A stretch of 64,000 nucleotides of DNA, from assembly GCF_963921235.1 (NCBI RefSeq), contig NC_086097.1:9796001-9860000 (forward strand), in the 5' to 3' direction. Under the pieces are notes generated by a model. It searched no databases. It was not told the origin of the DNA and saw only the letters and a program-made list of their open reading frames with translations. A program made the translations under genes and the position numbers. Positions 14,731 to 18,700 of the stretch are shown here, piece after piece (position 1 is the first letter of the stretch; each line of letters starts with the position of its first letter). The stretch comes from Mobula hypostoma. Taxonomy: Eukaryota.

Positions 14731-15165
14731 AATGGTCTGTCACTACCTTAGAACCATTCTTATGGTCCACATAGTTCAAAATTTTAAAACCACAATGTTT
14801 CAGATCAATCAGTTTTTGGATCAAGGTTCAAAAAAGTTTCAAAATTTCAGCTCATAGTTTCTTTGTTACGTGAGGAAAGAGAAACCATTTGTTTGAGATC
14901 CCAATAGGATCTGTCACCATGGAAACAAAGCTTAAAACATCATCCCCTTGAGTGGAGAGCAAAACAAAAACGATTCTGGGTAAATACATCAGAAGTCATT
15001 GGTGCTTAACACACATTGACTTTTTGCTGAAAGTTATTCAATATTTCATTGCTTCATGTTCCACTGTTTCAGTCTTCACAGATTAGACAAGATGGTGAGA
15101 TAGATTTTGTGGGGAATTAGAATTTTGTTAAGCAATTAATATCTCTGTGTTACCACAATGCAATT

Positions 15166-15590
15166 AAAGCTGCCCAGAATGGCTGGAAGACCAAGATTTT
15201 CCCTGTAGAAGTGGGATGCAGGAGATTCGTTGCTACATCTACGACCAGTCTATTGAAGAAGGTGGGGGTGAGGGGTCACTCCCTCCAAAAAGCAATCAAG
15301 TCCTTATCAAATGCAGCAGAAGAAAACAGCAATTGGATTTGGATTAAAGGGAAAGACAAATGGGCTGCAAGATGAAGACAGGAGGGTATGGAACTGAGGG
15401 GGTGTATCTGGGACTCCAGGTAGCACCGTTGAGCCCTCTGGAGACATCGTGGGCTTATCAGTGAAACGTCAAAGAAGGAGGGTGCCCACCTGATGACTCT
15501 GATGATGTACCTACCCTCCCTCCTTGTCACCACTCCAAGCCCACTGGCAACATCGAGAGTGCCGACTTGCCATAGGGATTGAAACATCAC
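15166..15590 (+). mobile_element. HERO-clade (restriction-like endonuclease) non-LTR retrotransposon, 3' end
   Basis: 15169-15375 translates AAQNGWKTKIFPVEVGCRRFVATSTTSLLKKVGVRGHSLQKAIKSLSNAAEENSNWIWIKGKDKWAAR*. The P.EVGCRGF..AAE..S.W.W.K pattern matches the HERO RLE C-terminus. Confidence 0.8.
15433..15505 (+). ncRNA. Candidate non-circularly permuted (pseudoknotted) hammerhead ribozyme
   Basis: GACAT-C^-GTGGGC ... TTATCAGT-GAAA-CGTC ... GCCCAC-CTGATGA-CT-CTGATGA. All three core strands are present and stems I, II and III can form. Confidence 0.65.
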
Positions 15591-15789
15591 GGTCCTAGTA
15601 GCTCTACTCCTCTTCACTTTGAAATGGAGGGCAACTCTTGTCTGCACCTGGTATTGAGCTGAAAGGATGATTAGTTAATGAGGTAAATACTTATTAATCT
15701 CTAAAATGGAGAGACCATGGAACTATTATGGTCCAACCAGCCGCAGGGGCAGGCCATAGCGACGAGATTTCTCACAGGTTGGCGACGCT

Positions 15790-18700
15790 GGTTTAAAAGG
15801 AGAGCTTTGCGGGCATTCAGGCTTATTCCGAAAGTGATGCTTGTTTAAAGTACAGAAGGGGTAAGCAGGGCGGCCATTGTTGGGAGTAGGCCAGTGGTGA
15901 GAGTGGGAATGTCAGGCTTAGGCTCAAAGGAGGCTTTGGCTTGAAAGAGGCATTGGCTTTGAGTAAACTTCTGTTAAGGTTCCTTTTTTTCCTCTCTTAC
16001 TCTACCTAGTGTAGTAAATGTGTGTTCTTCATGCCGGATGGTGGAGTCTTGGGAGACCCAGAGTCTCCCAGGGAACTACATCTGCGTGAAGTGCATCCGG
16101 CTGCAGCTCCTTGAAGACCATGTTAGGGATCTGGAGCAGCAGCTGGCTGACCTTCGGCTTGTATGGGAGAGTGAGGAGATAATCAATCAGAGTTACAGGG
16201 AAGTAGTCACCATGAAGTTGCAGGAGGTGAATAGCTAGGTGACTGTCAGGAGAAATGGAAATGTGAATAGGCAGTTAGCGCAGAGCACCCCTGTGGCTTT
16301 CCCTTCAAAAATAATATACTGTTTAGGATACTGTTGTGGGGGATGATCTTCCAGGGGAATGCCACGGAGACTGGGTTATTGGCACGGAGCATAGGTCCAT
16401 GGTGCAGAAGGGATAGAGGGAGGAGAGCGGCGTGGTAGTGATAGGGGACTCAATAGTCTGGGGAACAGACAGGAGATTATCTGGACGTGAAAGGTACGTT
16501 GCCTTCCAGGGAGCAACGTCACAGATGTCTCGGATCACATTACAACATTTTGGAGAGGGAGGGAGACCAGTCAGACGTCTTGGTATATATTGGTAACAAA
16601 GACATAAGAAGGAAAAGCAAAGAGGCCTTGAGAAGAGTATTTACCAAGCTAGGTAGAAAGCTGAGAGGCAGGACCACCCTGGTAGTAACTTTTGGATTGC
16701 TGCCTGTGTCATGCACCAGTAAGGGTAGAAACAGGATGCTTTGGCAAATTAATGTGTGGCTGAGAGACTGGTGTGGGGGACAGCTTCTAGGATCATTGGG
16801 ATCTCTTCTGTGGGAGGTATAACTTGTACAAAAGGGACAGGTTGCACCTGAACCCAAGGGGAACCAATATTCTTGTGGACAGGTTTGTTAGAGCTGTTGG
16901 GAAAGGTTAAAACTAATTTAGCAGAGGGGTGGGAACTGCAGTAAAGGGACTCAAGATAGGACGAATGATAAAAATCAAAGATACCATGCAGTCAGGCTGC
17001 TAGGAAGGGCAGACAAATGATAGGACATAATTGGAGCCAGTAGGGTGAGTATCAGTGCATCAGCGATGTGGATCCAAAAAAGGTAACAAATGCAGCACTC
17101 AAAGCATTATACCTCAACGCACAGGGTATAAGAAATAAGGTGGATGATCTTGTTGCACTTTTACAGATTGTTGGATTTGATATTGTGGCCATCACTGACA
17201 CACTGACTCATGGCTGAAGGATTGTTGTAGTTGGGAGCTGAATGTCCAAGGTTACATGTTATATCAGAGGGATAGGAAGGTAGGCAGAGGGGGTGATGTG
17301 GCTCTGCTGGTAAAGAATGGCATCAAAGCAGTATAAAGGTGTGACATCGGATCAGAAGACGTTGAATCCTTGCGGGTTGAGTTAAGAAACTGCAAGGGTA
17401 AAAGGACGCTGATGGCAGTTACAGTATATACAGGCCTGCCAACAGTAGCTGGCATGTAGACTACTGATTACAAAAACGAAATAGAAAAGATGAGTCAAAA
17501 GGGCAATATTATGGTAGTCATGGGAGATTTTAACATACAGGTCGATTCTGAAAATCGGGTTGGTAATGGATCTCAAGAAAGTGGGTTTGTTGAATGCCTA
17601 AGAGATGGCTTTTTAGAGCAGTTTGTTGTTGAAACCTATAGGGGATCAGTTATACTGGATTGGGTGTTATGTAATGAATCAGAGGTGATTAGGGAGCTAA
17701 AGGTAAAAGAACTCTTAAGAACCAGTGATCATAATATGACTGAGCTTAGCTTGAAATTTGATAGGGAGAAAGCAAAGTCTGACGTAACAGTATTTCAGTG
17801 GAGAAAAGGAAATTACAATGGTATCAGAGAGGAGTTGGCCAATGTAAATTGGAAGGAGCTCCTGGCAGGGACTTCACCAGAGCAGCAAAGGTGTGTGTTT
17901 AGGGGGGAAAATGAGGGAGGTGCAGGACATGTGTATTCCAAAAATGTAGAAATACTCAAATCGCAAAATAGTACAACTACAGCTGATAAGGGAAGTCAAA
18001 GCTAATGTAAAAGCAAAAGAGAGTGCATACAACAAAGCAAAGATTAGTGAGAAGACAGGCAATTGGAAAGCTTTTAAAACCCTACAGAGAGCAACTAAAA
18101 GAATCATTAGGAGGGAAAGAATGAAATATGAAAGCAAGCTATCAAACAATATCGAAGTGCATAGTAAAAGCTTTTTCATGTATGTAAAAAAATAAAACAG
18201 AGATCAGAGTGAATATAGGACCGCTAGAAAATGAGGCTGAAGAAATAGTATCAGTGGCCAAGGAGTTGGCAGATGAACGAAATGAGTATTTTGCATCAGT
18301 CTTCACTTGGAAGACACCAGCAGTGTGCCAGATGTTGAAGGGTGTGAGGGAAGAGAAGTGGGTGCAGTTACTATTACAAGGGAGAAAATGCACAAAAAGC
18401 TGCAAGACCTATGGGTACATAGGTCACCCAGGCCAGATGAACTGCACTCTGGAGTTCTGAAAGAGATAGCGGTAGAGATTGTGGAGGCATTAGTAATAAT
18501 CTTTCAAAAATCATTGGACTCTGGCCTGGTGCAGAGGACTGGAAAATTGCAAATGCCACTCCATTCTTTAAGAAAGGAGGAAGGAAATTATAGACCAGTT
18601 AGCCTGACCTCAGTGGTTGGGAAGATGTTGGAGTCAATTGTTAAGGATGAGGTTATGGAGTGCCTGGTAACACAGGATAAGATAGGATAAAATCAGCATG

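What the first reader, a model, noticed from the sequence alone, without database searches (positions are those of the whole stretch)
15433..15505. Rearranged (non-circularly permuted, pseudoknotted) hammerhead ribozyme in the 3' UTR of a HERO retrotransposon
Seen: about 60 nt after the stop of a HERO RLE ORF, all three hammerhead core strands occur, but in the order [stem III-NUH-stem I], [stem II-GAAA-stem III], [stem I-CUGAUGA-stem II]. That order is not type I, II or III, which are circular permutations. Stem I is GTGGGC 15449-54 with GCCCAC 15484-89 and directly abuts the core CTGATGA 15490-96. Stem III is GAC(A)T 15443-47 with ACGTC 15466-70, extended by GCCCTCT 15433-39 with GGAGGGT 15477-83. 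Stem II is TTATCAG 15455-61 with CTGATGA 15499-505. The predicted cut is after C15448. Inference: the single stem III mismatch (GACATC versus GACGTC) looks like CpG decay, and the usual R10.1-Y11.1 pair is missing, so this copy may be dead while the family consensus is active. A self-cleaving RNA in the 3' UTR of an RLE LINE differs from the 5' HDV-like ribozymes of R2 and could set transcript ends. I recall that non-circularly permuted hammerheads have been reported, but I cannot verify whether this family or taxon is covered.
Basis: partly seen in the sequence, partly recalled or inferred. Interest (0 to 1): 0.85.

Follow-up and report, generated by a model that had tools for sequence, protein, structure and literature searches.

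The report
Core-split hammerhead ribozyme in LINE 3' UTR
The 3' untranslated region of this fish-type jumping gene carries a conserved hammerhead self-cutting RNA motif whose strands are wired in an order not described before, with the conserved core itself interrupted, so it looks like a new way to build a well-known ribozyme.

Summary
The window holds a decayed, 5'-truncated copy (15160-15608) of a roughly 3.5-kb RT plus restriction-like-endonuclease LINE with over 1500 candidate copies in this genome.

Comparison with 73 related loci from metagenomes (33-81% protein identity) shows a conserved domain of about 115 nt just after the stop codon. Its hammerhead core is invariant: GAAA 42/42, U16.1 41/41, and H17 is never G. 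N7 is free, and C3 and G8 covary. Seven helices covary: 84% of cells are paired against 56% in shuffles (0 of 500 shuffles reach it).

His stem II does not. The true 10.x strand lies upstream (GTTGA 15428-32, pairing with 15458-62), and G10.1-C11.1 is present.

The RNA chain is therefore broken between A9 and G10.1. That gap is closed by a new helix IV and a hairpin V. This amounts to a circular permutation of the published type-SGC hammerhead, opened inside its core, and matches none of the six block orders described.

Rfam 15 gives no match, and nine literature searches found no description. Self-cleavage and biological role are untested.

The parts
15160..15608 (+). 5'-truncated copy of the RT+RLE non-LTR retrotransposon (ORF C-terminal remnant to 15375, then 3' UTR to the common 3' end ...CTCTACT)
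   Evidence: 40 scored matches out of 1585 candidates, covering query positions 41-489 at 92-94% identity; 5' ends vary while the 3' end is shared; longer copies carry RVT_1, a CCHC knuckle and a PD..E..K-like C-terminus.
15399..15402 (+). Helix IV, 5' strand (X): GGGG, pairs with 15497-15500
   Evidence: the segment right after A9 pairs with the segment just 5' of hairpin V. The helix is >=8 bp in 14 of 23 relatives, against 5.6% of cross-sequence controls, but only 4 bp in this lineage; helix IV is 78.9% paired and all 10 pairs show changes on both sides.
15403..15427 (+). Hairpin V (P0), directly between helix IV and G10.1
   Evidence: RNAfold of the intervening 22-27 nt gives a hairpin in most relatives, with different sequences; helix V is 76.0% paired and all 7 pairs show changes on both sides.
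15428..15432 (+). Stem II, 5' strand (G10.1-10.5): GTTGA
   Evidence: stem II is 92% paired on alignments not fitted to it, and 4 of 5 pairs change on both sides. The 10.1-11.1 pair is G-C in 36-38 rows and G-U in 3; 5 of 5 pairs form in 26 of 30 copies from this genome.
15433..15439 (+).
   Evidence: in block-registered sequences, 22-24 of 24 are canonical at each of 6 positions, with 3-5 pair types; 78-79% paired on the CM alignment.
15443..15448 (+). Stem III 5' strand GACA (family GACG), then U16.1 (15447) and C17 (15448). Predicted cleavage lies between 15448 and 15449.
   Evidence: U16.1 in 41 of 41 rows; H17 is T in 12, C in 14, A in 15 and never G; stem III is 90.5-91.5% paired; 15446 is a G>A change at a CpG, giving an A-C mismatch at 16.2-15.2.
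15449..15454 (+). Stem I, 5' strand: GTGGGC
   Evidence: stem I is 91-92% paired, and all 6 pairs change on both sides, on alignments not fitted to it.
15455..15457 (+). Short A/U-rich linker from stem I to stem II (TTA)
   Evidence: the linker is 1-6 nt in 42 distinct rows (TAA, TTAAA, TAG and others); the same direct I-to-II connection is seen in the published type-SGC alignment.
15458..15462 (+). Stem II, 3' strand (11.5-11.1): TCAGT (family TCAAC)
   Evidence: The window changes 15461 A>G and 15462 C>T keep pairing through G-U wobbles.
15463..15466 (+). GAAA box (G12 A13 A14 A15.1)
   Evidence: invariant in 42 of 42 distinct rows.
15467..15470 (+). Stem III, 3' strand: CGTC
15477..15483 (+). 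Joining helix Pb, 3' strand: GGAGGGT
15484..15489 (+). Stem I, 3' strand: GCCCAC
15490..15496 (+). CUGAUGA box (C3-A9)
   Evidence: U4, G5, A6 and A9 in 40 of 40 rows; C3 in 35 of 40; G8 in 38 of 40; N7 is free (C 12, T 21, A 6, G 1). CTGATGA in 26 of 30 copies from this genome.
15497..15500 (+). Helix IV, 3' strand (Z): CTCT (family CCCC), starting at the first base after A9

Best explanation
Window 15399-15500 is a decayed copy of a conserved RNA domain of about 115 nt that sits 30-190 nt after the stop codon in a clade of RT+RLE (HERO-like) non-LTR retrotransposons. The domain is a hammerhead ribozyme with new wiring. Its 5'-to-3' order is: helix IV 5' strand, hairpin V, stem II 5' strand (G10.1 onward), joining helix Pb 5' strand, stem III 5' strand, U-H (cleavage site), stem I 5' strand, a short linker, stem II 3' strand, GAAA, stem III 3' strand, Pb 3' strand, stem I 3' strand, CUGAnGA, helix IV 3' strand. 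All three canonical stems and the core boxes are present and correctly adjacent, but the chain does not run from A9 into G10.1. Instead, A9 continues into helix IV, and G10.1 is entered from hairpin V. In most sequences these abut with no unpaired linker, which gives a four-way junction at that point. The rest of the fold (stem I wired directly to stem II, plus a helix joining the other sides of stems I and II) matches the published type-SGC hammerhead. The domain is therefore a circular permutation of that fold, opened inside the catalytic core. Shown here: the conservation, the covariation and the connectivity. Inferred: that intact copies self-cleave after H17 by the usual hammerhead reaction, leaving a 2',3'-cyclic phosphate on the ORF-bearing fragment and a 5'-OH on the roughly 160-nt 3' fragment. 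The biological role is unknown. My best guess is transcript processing, either of head-to-tail or read-through transcripts or as a switch that separates the coding part from the 3' end used for reverse transcription. The window copy has an A-C mismatch next to the cleavage site and belongs to a truncated dead insertion, so it is probably impaired.
For: (1) Relatives. A covariance model built only on helices IV, V, Pb and III finds 49 matches. All lie on the coding strand, in 42 of 73 metagenome loci plus 3 sources from this genome; the window scores 47.7 bits, and 66.1 bits with the second model. Of 32 ORF ends with at least 130 nt downstream, 30 carry a hit. (2) Covariation. For stems I, II and III, 91.2% of 682 cells are paired, against 61.6% in shuffles (0 of 500) and 34-44% when partners are slid; 202 cells change on both sides, against 58.7 in shuffles. 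Stems I and II were not in the model. For all seven helices, 84.1% of 1476 cells are paired, against 55.6% in shuffles (0 of 500). (3) Core pattern typical of catalytic hammerheads: GAAA 42/42; U16.1 41/41; H17 is T 12, C 14, A 15, G 0; U4, G5, A6 and A9 40/40; N7 is free; G10.1 41/41. (4) C3 and G8 covary. Most rows are C-G; L052 and L053/L054 have U-A (TTGACAA); L103 and L104 have U.G (TTGAAGA). G8 pairs with C3 in the crystal structure (PMC11300833, passage read), and U3-A8 is a known natural variant in Penelope-element hammerheads (PMC4209133, passages read). (5) The A9/10.1 junction tolerates an extra nucleotide in known hammerheads (PMC4209133; the CUGAUGAUG descriptor and alignment of Eckert et al.). 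(6) Helix IV starts at the first base after A9: it is >=8 bp in 14 of 23 sequences, against 5.6% of cross controls. (7) Specificity: the strict parse hits 29 of 73 loci forward, 0 of 73 reverse and 0 of 1460 shuffled.
Against: No cleavage experiment and no RNA data exist. An interrupted CUGAnGA-to-stem-II strand has no precedent, and Eckert et al. assumed that block cannot be broken. None of the 20 extra copies sampled with the 159-nt 3' fragment begins at the predicted cleavage site, and neither does any of the 30 loci, so there is no footprint of cleaved RNA being reverse-transcribed. Cutting here would sever the ORF from the 3' end that the shared 3' termini of the copies show is the start of reverse transcription, which is a functional paradox. 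Helix IV is only 4 bp in this genome's lineage. One relative has A3 with G8 (L113), and 2 of 32 ORF ends lack the domain (L077, L114). My block parser selects for pairing, and the CM alignments are fitted to four of the seven helices. The sequences are related, which inflates the excess over shuffles.
Confidence: 0.72

Rival explanations
1. The domain is a conserved structured RNA that serves as a protein-binding or reverse-transcription recognition element of the 3' UTR. It keeps a hammerhead-like fold but does not cut itself in vivo, or cuts negligibly.
For: Stringent LINEs use 3' UTR structures for RT recognition (general knowledge, not tested here). No genomic copy starts at the cleavage site (0 of 20; 0 of 30). 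Cleavage would separate the ORF from the 3' end. The core strand is interrupted between A9 and G10.1. Penelope-element hammerheads also cleave poorly in vitro (PMC4209133, passage read).
Against: The conservation pattern is the one expected from catalysis rather than helix scaffolding: H17 is never G in 41 rows, N7 is free, C3-G8 covaries to U-A, and G12, A13, A14, G5 and A6 are invariant.
Confidence: 0.22
2. One reading: a type-SGC hammerhead with three unbroken blocks, stem II formed by 15455-61 with 15499-505, and no 10.1-11.1 pair.
For: In the window copy the two segments form 7 of 7 pairs.
Against: The other 29 copies form only 4-6 of those pairs, and the 7-bp helix depends on four changes private to the window copy. 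In relatives the segment after A9 pairs with the far upstream helix IV strand instead. The upstream 10.x strand covaries with the 11.x strand, 92% paired.
Confidence: 0.02
3. Chance resemblance: short core boxes and two short helices that any genome of this size would offer many times.
For: Without stem II, the relaxed descriptor gives 0.043 hits per shuffled 64-kb window, and 0.0067 at the observed stem lengths. That would mean hundreds of chance sites in 3.5 Gb. The window copy itself fails the strict descriptor.
Against: The same architecture, with different helix sequences, recurs at the same place and on the same strand in 42 of 73 related loci. It occurs 0 times on reverse strands and in 0 of 1460 shuffled loci.
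Confidence: 0.01

Closest known systems
Type-SGC hammerhead ribozymes (HRIMA-1 motif and variants; Eckert, Friedrich, Weinberg & Weinberg, NAR 2023, PMC10085705; sections 7, 13-15 and supplement parts 4-5 read)
   Same: The cleavage-site block is followed directly by the GAAA block. Stem I 5' strand is wired to stem II 3' strand by a few nucleotides. A helix joins the other sides of stems I and II (our Pb). The core boxes are the same. There is an irregularity between A9 and G10.1, an extra U in HRIMA-1.
   Different: In type SGC the strand stem I 3'-CUGAnGA-stem II 5' is continuous and the ends lie at stem III and the joining helix. Here the chain is joined at that place and opened between A9 and G10.1, with two extra helices (IV and V). 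The published examples come from soil, spruce and freshwater metatranscriptomes and sit beside hairpin ribozymes, not in an animal retrotransposon. Their descriptors (CUGAUGAG or CUGAUGAUG followed by stem II) cannot match this motif.
Hammerhead ribozymes of Penelope-like retroelements (Cervera & de la Pena, MBE 2014, PMC4209133; passages read)
   Same: A hammerhead carried by an autonomous eukaryotic retroelement, in the terminal region that precedes the next ORF when copies lie head to tail. A nucleotide lies between positions 9 and 10.1. A U3-A8 variant of the C3-G8 pair occurs.
   Different: Those are minimal type I motifs thought to act as dimers, with a continuous core strand, in GIY-YIG elements. 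This one is a monomeric closed domain of about 115 nt with seven helices, in RLE-type LINEs.
HDV-like ribozymes at the 5' end of R2 and other non-LTR retrotransposons (Eickbush & Eickbush 2010; seen only in reference lists and in passages of PMC13580325)
   Same: A self-cleaving RNA carried by an RLE-type LINE, used there to release the element RNA from a co-transcript.
   Different: A different ribozyme class, and a different position (the 5' end, not the 3' UTR). No HDV-like or any other Rfam family matched here.
Discontinuous hammerhead in mammalian Clec2 3' UTRs (Martick et al. 2008; recalled, seen only as a reference)
   Same: A hammerhead within a 3' UTR, with parts that are far apart in sequence.
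   Different: There the discontinuity is a long insertion in a stem loop and the three core strands are intact. Here the core strand itself is interrupted.

Membership tests
Hammerhead ribozyme (class) | CUGAnGA box directly 3' of the stem I 3' strand | tested here: met
   U4, G5, A6 and A9 in 40 of 40 rows; C3 in 35 of 40; G8 in 38 of 40; N7 variable. Window: CTGATGA at 15490-96, abutting GCCCAC.
Hammerhead ribozyme (class) | GAAA box between stem II 3' strand and stem III 3' strand, with an A15.1-U16.1 pair | tested here: met
   GAAA in 42 of 42 rows; the U-A pair in 40-41 of 40-41 rows.
Hammerhead ribozyme (class) | Cleavage-site triplet NUH (H is not G) between stems III and I | tested here: met
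   H17 is T in 12 rows, C in 14, A in 15 and G in 0.
Hammerhead ribozyme (class) | Stems I, II and III supported by covariation, with a G10.1-C11.1 closing pair | tested here: met
   91.2% paired against 61.6% in shuffles (0 of 500); 15 of 17 pairs change on both sides; the 10.1-11.1 pair is G-C in 38 rows and G-U in 3.
Hammerhead ribozyme (class) | C3-G8 tertiary pair of the active fold | tested here: met
   among the 40 distinct rows that hold the C block, C3 in 35 and G8 in 38; U-A in 2 distinct rows, U.G in 2 and A.G in 1. The pair itself is described in PMC11300833.
Hammerhead ribozyme (class) | Three continuous core strands forming a three-way junction (types I, II, III) | tested here: not met
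   the stem II 5' strand lies upstream of the cleavage-site block. A9 runs into helix IV, not into G10.1.
Hammerhead ribozyme (class) | Match to curated Rfam hammerhead models | tested here: not met
   no Rfam 15 family at gathering score in the window, none of the hammerhead families at E<=10 around the site, and nothing at E<=1 in 8 loci with intact motifs.
Hammerhead ribozyme (class) | Site-specific Mg2+-dependent self-cleavage | not testable with these tools
   No bench assay was possible. The sequencing runs found are contigs only, with no RNA holder listed.
Type-SGC hammerhead (Eckert et al. 2023) | Block order S-G-C with an unbroken C block (stem I 3'-CUGAnGA-stem II 5') | tested here: not met
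   S and G are contiguous and in that order, but the C block is split.
Type-SGC hammerhead (Eckert et al. 2023) | Short linker from stem I 5' strand to stem II 3' strand, and a helix joining the other sides of stems I and II | tested here: met
   Linker of 1-6 nt. Pb helix. Compared with the published alignment.
HERO clade of RLE non-LTR retrotransposons | Single ORF with RT followed by a CCHC motif and a PD-(D/E)xK-like endonuclease | tested here: met
   RVT_1 at E 5e-23. The CSLC..H....C and PD...ELTVPWE...K..KY strings were read. Relatives are ORFs of 1100-1200 aa. The endonuclease has no Pfam match, so the motif was read by eye.
HERO clade of RLE non-LTR retrotransposons | Mostly non-site-specific insertion, unlike the R2, R4, NeSL and CRE clades (PMC4640811, passage read) | tested here: met
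   Over 1500 candidate copies lie on many contigs, with unrelated flanks and variable 5' truncation.
HERO clade of RLE non-LTR retrotransposons | Placement within the HERO clade in an RT phylogeny with reference elements | not tested
   No Repbase reference sequences were available. Database names of relatives are generic or 'R2'-type automatic labels.

The most novel reading that the evidence does not exclude
This is an active hammerhead whose conserved core strand is physically interrupted between A9 and G10.1 and closed by a four-way junction. It would be a seventh, previously excluded kind of hammerhead permutation. It is conserved across a whole clade of animal RLE-type LINEs and shares its pseudoknotted fold with the type-SGC ribozymes of viroid-like RNAs. 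That would link autonomous LINEs to the ribozyme-bearing circular-RNA world. Together with the frequent head-to-tail arrangement of these elements, it would suggest that unit-length RNAs are cut out of multimeric transcripts.
Probability: 0.6. Interest if true: 0.92.

Novelty: new variant of a known kind. Interest (0 to 1): 0.85.

Why it matters
If the domain cleaves, four things follow. (1) A ribozyme's conserved core strand can be broken and re-routed in nature. Block-based descriptors and covariance models therefore miss real hammerheads: Rfam 15 and the published SGC, CSG and GCS patterns cannot find this one. (2) It would add a hammerhead to the RLE-type LINEs, the group known until now for 5' HDV-like ribozymes, and place it in the 3' UTR, which raises a concrete question about how these elements process their RNA. 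(3) It would tie an animal retrotransposon motif to the unusual type-SGC fold, so far seen only in environmental RNA. (4) It offers a compact, closed, seven-helix hammerhead scaffold for structural and engineering work. The question is directly testable with one in vitro transcription experiment.

Tried and rejected
1. Rfam. There was no family at gathering score in the window. Around the site only weak miRNA or lncRNA noise appeared at E<=10. Nothing appeared at E<=1 in 8 intact loci.

2. The nested minimum-free-energy fold pairs GUGGGCUU (15449-56) with AAGCCCAC (15539-46). The downstream partner was not seen in the one relative I inspected (L055), so I did not adopt this pairing.

3. Helix IV was first sought as a pairing between the region 5' of stem II and the region 3' of A9, read by eye in this genome's family. 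It was only found once hairpin V was recognised in relatives.

4. Looking for a spike of 5' ends at the cleavage site. All 20 copies sampled with the 159-nt 3' fragment extend upstream of the site.

5. Sequencing runs. No RNA holder is listed, and all 24 runs are kept as contigs. Laying 4 runs gave no places where molecules begin or end, so there is no information on expression or cleavage. One contig in each of X1 and X2 shows a copy whose homology starts at L022:1795-1796, 2-3 nt past the predicted cut. This appears to be a single locus and is not a trend.

The covariance model cannot be run on the own genome.

7. Earlier findings of this scan gave nothing on this genome or motif, only prokaryotic and phage hammerheads.

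8. Literature. Searches found no description of a hammerhead in HERO or RLE LINEs, nor of a core-split hammerhead. Subscription-only papers are not covered, and bioRxiv supplements are closed.

9. MAFFT alignments alone mis-register the variable linkers. I therefore used anchored blocks in scripts and two rounds of CM alignment.
Full report
**Observation.** The ORF remnant upstream ends at 15375. No Rfam 15 family reaches its gathering score anywhere in the window. A permissive scan of 15000-16000 gives only weak noise.

**What the window copy is.** A search of the window's own genome (3.48 Gb) with 15120-15620 returned 40 scored matches out of 1585 candidates. All cover query positions 41-489 at 92-94% identity. 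The copies share one 3' end (...GTAGCTCTACT, sometimes followed by short ACT/CTCT repeats) and have different 5' ends and unrelated flanks. This is the signature of a non-LTR retrotransposon. Longer copies reach about 3.46 kb. They encode an RVT_1 domain (E 5e-23) followed by a CCHC motif and a PD..E..K-like C-terminus. Relatives in protein databases are single ORFs of 1100-1200 aa from teleosts, sturgeon, lamprey and lancelet. This fits the HERO clade, described as the mostly non-site-specific RLE clade (PMC4640811, passage read). I had no reference elements for a phylogeny. The window copy spans 15160-15608.

**The family version.** Across a 141-nt stretch the window copy differs from the majority of 29 other copies at 7 positions, 4 of them at CpG sites. 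That helix makes 7 of 7 pairs only in the window copy and 4-6 in the other 29. In the family version the segment after CUGAUGA does not pair with the segment before GAAA next to the core.

**Chance.** A descriptor requiring only the S-G-C order, the core boxes and stems I and III gave 13 hits in 300 dinucleotide shuffles of the window (0.043 per window). At the observed stem lengths it gave 2 hits (0.0067). That is rare for one window, but hundreds of chance sites would be expected in a genome of this size. Only 12 of the 29 other copies pass it, and the window copy does not. On these features alone the finding would not stand.

**Relatives settle it.** I aligned 20 full-length relatives and scanned metagenome contigs. 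This gave 73 loci encoding relatives at 33-81% identity. In most loci that include the ORF end, a CTGAnGA lies 80-250 nt after the stop, preceded by GAAA and a U-H site in fixed adjacency to helices whose sequences differ between loci.

Reading these together gives one architecture, from 5' to 3':
- helix IV 5' strand
- hairpin V
- stem II 5' strand (G10.1 onward)
- joining helix Pb 5' strand
- 2-6 nt
- stem III 5' strand
- U-H (cleavage site)
- stem I 5' strand
- a 1-6 nt A/U-rich linker
- stem II 3' strand (ending in C11.1)
- GAAA
- stem III 3' strand
- 0-6 nt
- Pb 3' strand
- stem I 3' strand
- CUGAnGA
- helix IV 3' strand, starting at the first base after A9

In the window these map to:

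| Element | Window position |
|---|---|
| Helix IV 5' strand | 15399-402 |
| Hairpin V | 15403-27 |
| Stem II 5' strand | 15428-32 |
| Pb 5' strand | 15433-39 |
| Stem III 5' strand with U and H | 15443-48 |
| Stem I 5' strand | 15449-54 |
| Stem II 3' strand | 15458-62 |
| GAAA | 15463-66 |
| Stem III 3' strand | 15467-70 |
| Pb 3' strand | 15477-83 |
| Stem I 3' strand | 15484-89 |
| CUGAUGA | 15490-96 |
| Helix IV 3' strand | 15497-500 |

**Statistics and controls.**
- A strict four-helix parse hits 29 of 73 loci on the coding strand, 0 of 73 on the reverse strand and 0 of 1460 shuffled loci.
- A covariance model built only on helices IV, V, Pb and III finds 49 matches, all on the coding strand. 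They lie in 42 of 73 metagenome loci plus two copies from this genome and the window (15391-15506, 47.7 bits). A second-round model gives 48 matches, with the window at 66.1 bits.
- Of 32 ORF ends with at least 130 nt downstream, 30 carry a model hit. L077 and L114 do not.
- Each copy in this genome has one hit, in its 3' UTR.
Shuffles give 61.6% (0 of 500 reach the observed value) and slid partners give 33.6-43.8%. There are 202 cells changed on both sides, against 58.7 in shuffles. By helix: stem II 92.2%, stem III 90.5%, stem I 91.1%.
- With all seven helices written as a pseudoknot on the second alignment, 84.1% of 1476 cells pair, against 55.6% in shuffles (0 of 500) and 36.5-42.5% when slid. 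By helix: IV 78.9%, V 76.0%, II 92.3%, Pb 77.8% and 79.2%, III 91.5%, I 92.4%.
- In my anchored block alignment of 24 distinct sequences, 527 of 552 cells are canonical. That parser selects for pairing, so I give more weight.
- Helix IV was tested separately. The 10 nt after A9 find a helix of >=8 bp in their own upstream region in 14 of 23 sequences, against 5.6% of 498 cross-sequence controls. The gap between that helix and stem II is 22-27 nt in 16 of 23. RNAfold closes that gap as a hairpin from first to last base in most sequences.
- The sequences are related, so excess over shuffles overstates independence. The slid controls and the many distinct pair types per column do not share that weakness.

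**The core behaves like a catalytic hammerhead core (42 distinct rows, 40 of them with the C block).**
- G12, A13, A14 and A15.1 are invariant in 42 of 42 rows.
- U16.1 is present in 41 of 41.
- H17 is T in 12, C in 14, A in 15 and never G.
- U4, G5, A6 and A9 are present in 40 of 40.
- N7 is free (C 12, T 21, A 6, G 1).
- G10.1 is present in 41 of 41.
- Position 11.1 is C in 39 and U in 3.
- The exceptions at C3 and G8 go together. TTGACAA (U3 with A8) occurs in L052 and L053/L054. TTGAAGA (U3 with G8) occurs in L103 and L104. ATGATGA occurs in L113.

G8 pairs with C3 in the crystal structure of a hammerhead, where A9 also forms a sheared pair with G12 next to the G10.1-C11.1 pair (PMC11300833, passage read). 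U3-A8 has been reported as a natural covariation in Penelope-element hammerheads (PMC4209133, passages read). A scaffold that only needed helices would not be expected to keep this pattern.

**Comparison with what is known.** Eckert et al. 2023 divide the hammerhead into three blocks: S (stem III, U-H, stem I), G (stem II, GAAA, stem III) and C (stem I, CUGAnGA, stem II). They assume each block is unbreakable, which gives six possible orders. They found type SGC (583 sequences from soil, spruce and freshwater metatranscriptomes), type CSG and one GCS candidate.

Their search patterns require CUGAUGAG or CUGAUGAUG followed directly by stem II. Their HRIMA-1 alignment reads: stem III, U-C (cut), stem I, about 4 nt, stem II 3' strand, GAAA, stem III, a joining-helix strand, stem I 3' strand, CUGAUGA, U, stem II 5' strand, a joining-helix strand.

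Our domain has the same S-to-G wiring and the same joining helix. Two things differ. The two ends of the HRIMA-1 fold are joined (Pb 5' strand runs on into stem III), and the chain is opened between A9 and G10.1. It is therefore a circular permutation of the type-SGC fold with the opening inside block C, and it fits none of the six orders.

The opening site is where HRIMA-1 has its extra U, and where Penelope-element and some viroid hammerheads carry an extra nucleotide (the viroid case was seen only as a cited title). Helix IV abuts A9, and hairpin V abuts both helix IV and G10.1. The site therefore looks like a four-way junction in which the stack from stem II through the core to stem III could stay continuous while two strands cross over to a helix IV-hairpin V stack. 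That last sentence is inference from the secondary structure only.

**Literature.** Nine searches and passages of two 2026 papers found no report of a hammerhead in HERO or RLE LINEs or of a core-split hammerhead. The two papers were PMC13725137 and a bioRxiv survey. A 2026 R2 review mentions only the 5' HDV-like ribozyme. Papers outside the library, and closed supplements, could hold such a report.

**Function.** This part is open.
- Against a simple role as the source of the reverse-transcription template: all 20 extra copies sampled with the 159-nt 3' fragment, and the 30 loci, extend upstream of the predicted cut. The copies' common 3' end lies 159 nt beyond the cut.
- A possible clue comes from the arrangement of relatives. 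In 10 loci the order is ORF end, hammerhead domain, start of the next ORF on the same strand. In 8 more loci the domain lies upstream of an ORF start at a contig edge, typically 100-350 nt before the start codon.
- L119 holds a 5'-truncated copy directly followed by a full copy.
- Head-to-tail copies would put the ribozyme of one copy in front of the next. This recalls the hammerheads in the flanking repeats of Penelope-like elements and the 5' ribozyme of R2.
- In this genome none of the 30 loci examined is tandem.
- RNA evidence could not be obtained.

**Verdict.** The true structure is more unusual than he proposed. That this is a conserved structured domain with a hammerhead core is close to certain. 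I put at about 0.7 the chance that intact copies self-cleave. The window copy itself is a decayed, truncated insertion with a mismatch next to the cleavage site. The role of the domain is not known.

Noticed in passing
L119:1049-7093; also L054, L060, L065, L073, L102, L103, L104, L109, L120: Relatives in metagenome contigs often lie head to tail. In 10 loci an ORF end, the ribozyme domain and the start of the next ORF follow each other on one strand. In 8 more loci (L053, L066, L076, L082, L099, L110, L113, L122) the domain sits upstream of an ORF start at a contig edge. L119 is a 5'-truncated copy abutting a full copy (99.9% identical over 1680 nt).
   Followed up: partly
window 15449-15456 and 15539-15546: In this genome's family the stem I 5' strand GUGGGCUU can also pair with a downstream AAGCCCAC (8 bp), which the nested minimum-energy fold prefers. 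The partner was not seen in the one relative inspected (L055). It may be a lineage-specific alternative, possibly inhibitory, or a coincidence.
   Followed up: partly
L022:1795-1796 (equivalent to window about 15450-15451): In contigs of two coded runs from different organisms (X1, X2), one copy's homology begins 2-3 nt after the predicted cleavage site, with the same unrelated sequence before it. It appears to be a single orthologous truncated insertion, so it is an anecdote and not a trend.
   Followed up: no
L050:5403, L049:4759, L051 (reverse complement) 5252: The three longest copies fetched from this genome all begin at the same point, which corresponds to about residue 65-70 of the full-length relatives' ORF. 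The true 5' end and start codon of this family were not seen.
   Followed up: no
window 15600-15613 and the 3' ends of L002-L030: Copies end in ...GTAGCTCTACT, with variable short ACT/CTCT/CTACT additions before the flank. This is reminiscent of the microsatellite-like tails reported for some RLE elements.
   Followed up: no
L052:3739-3852, L053:20-133, L054:1524-1637, L103:2183-2297, L104:2133-2247: The families closest to this genome's element outside it carry U3-A8 or U3.G8 in place of C3-G8, while every helix is kept. This is a natural series that could be used to test the C3-G8 pair in this scaffold.
   Followed up: partly
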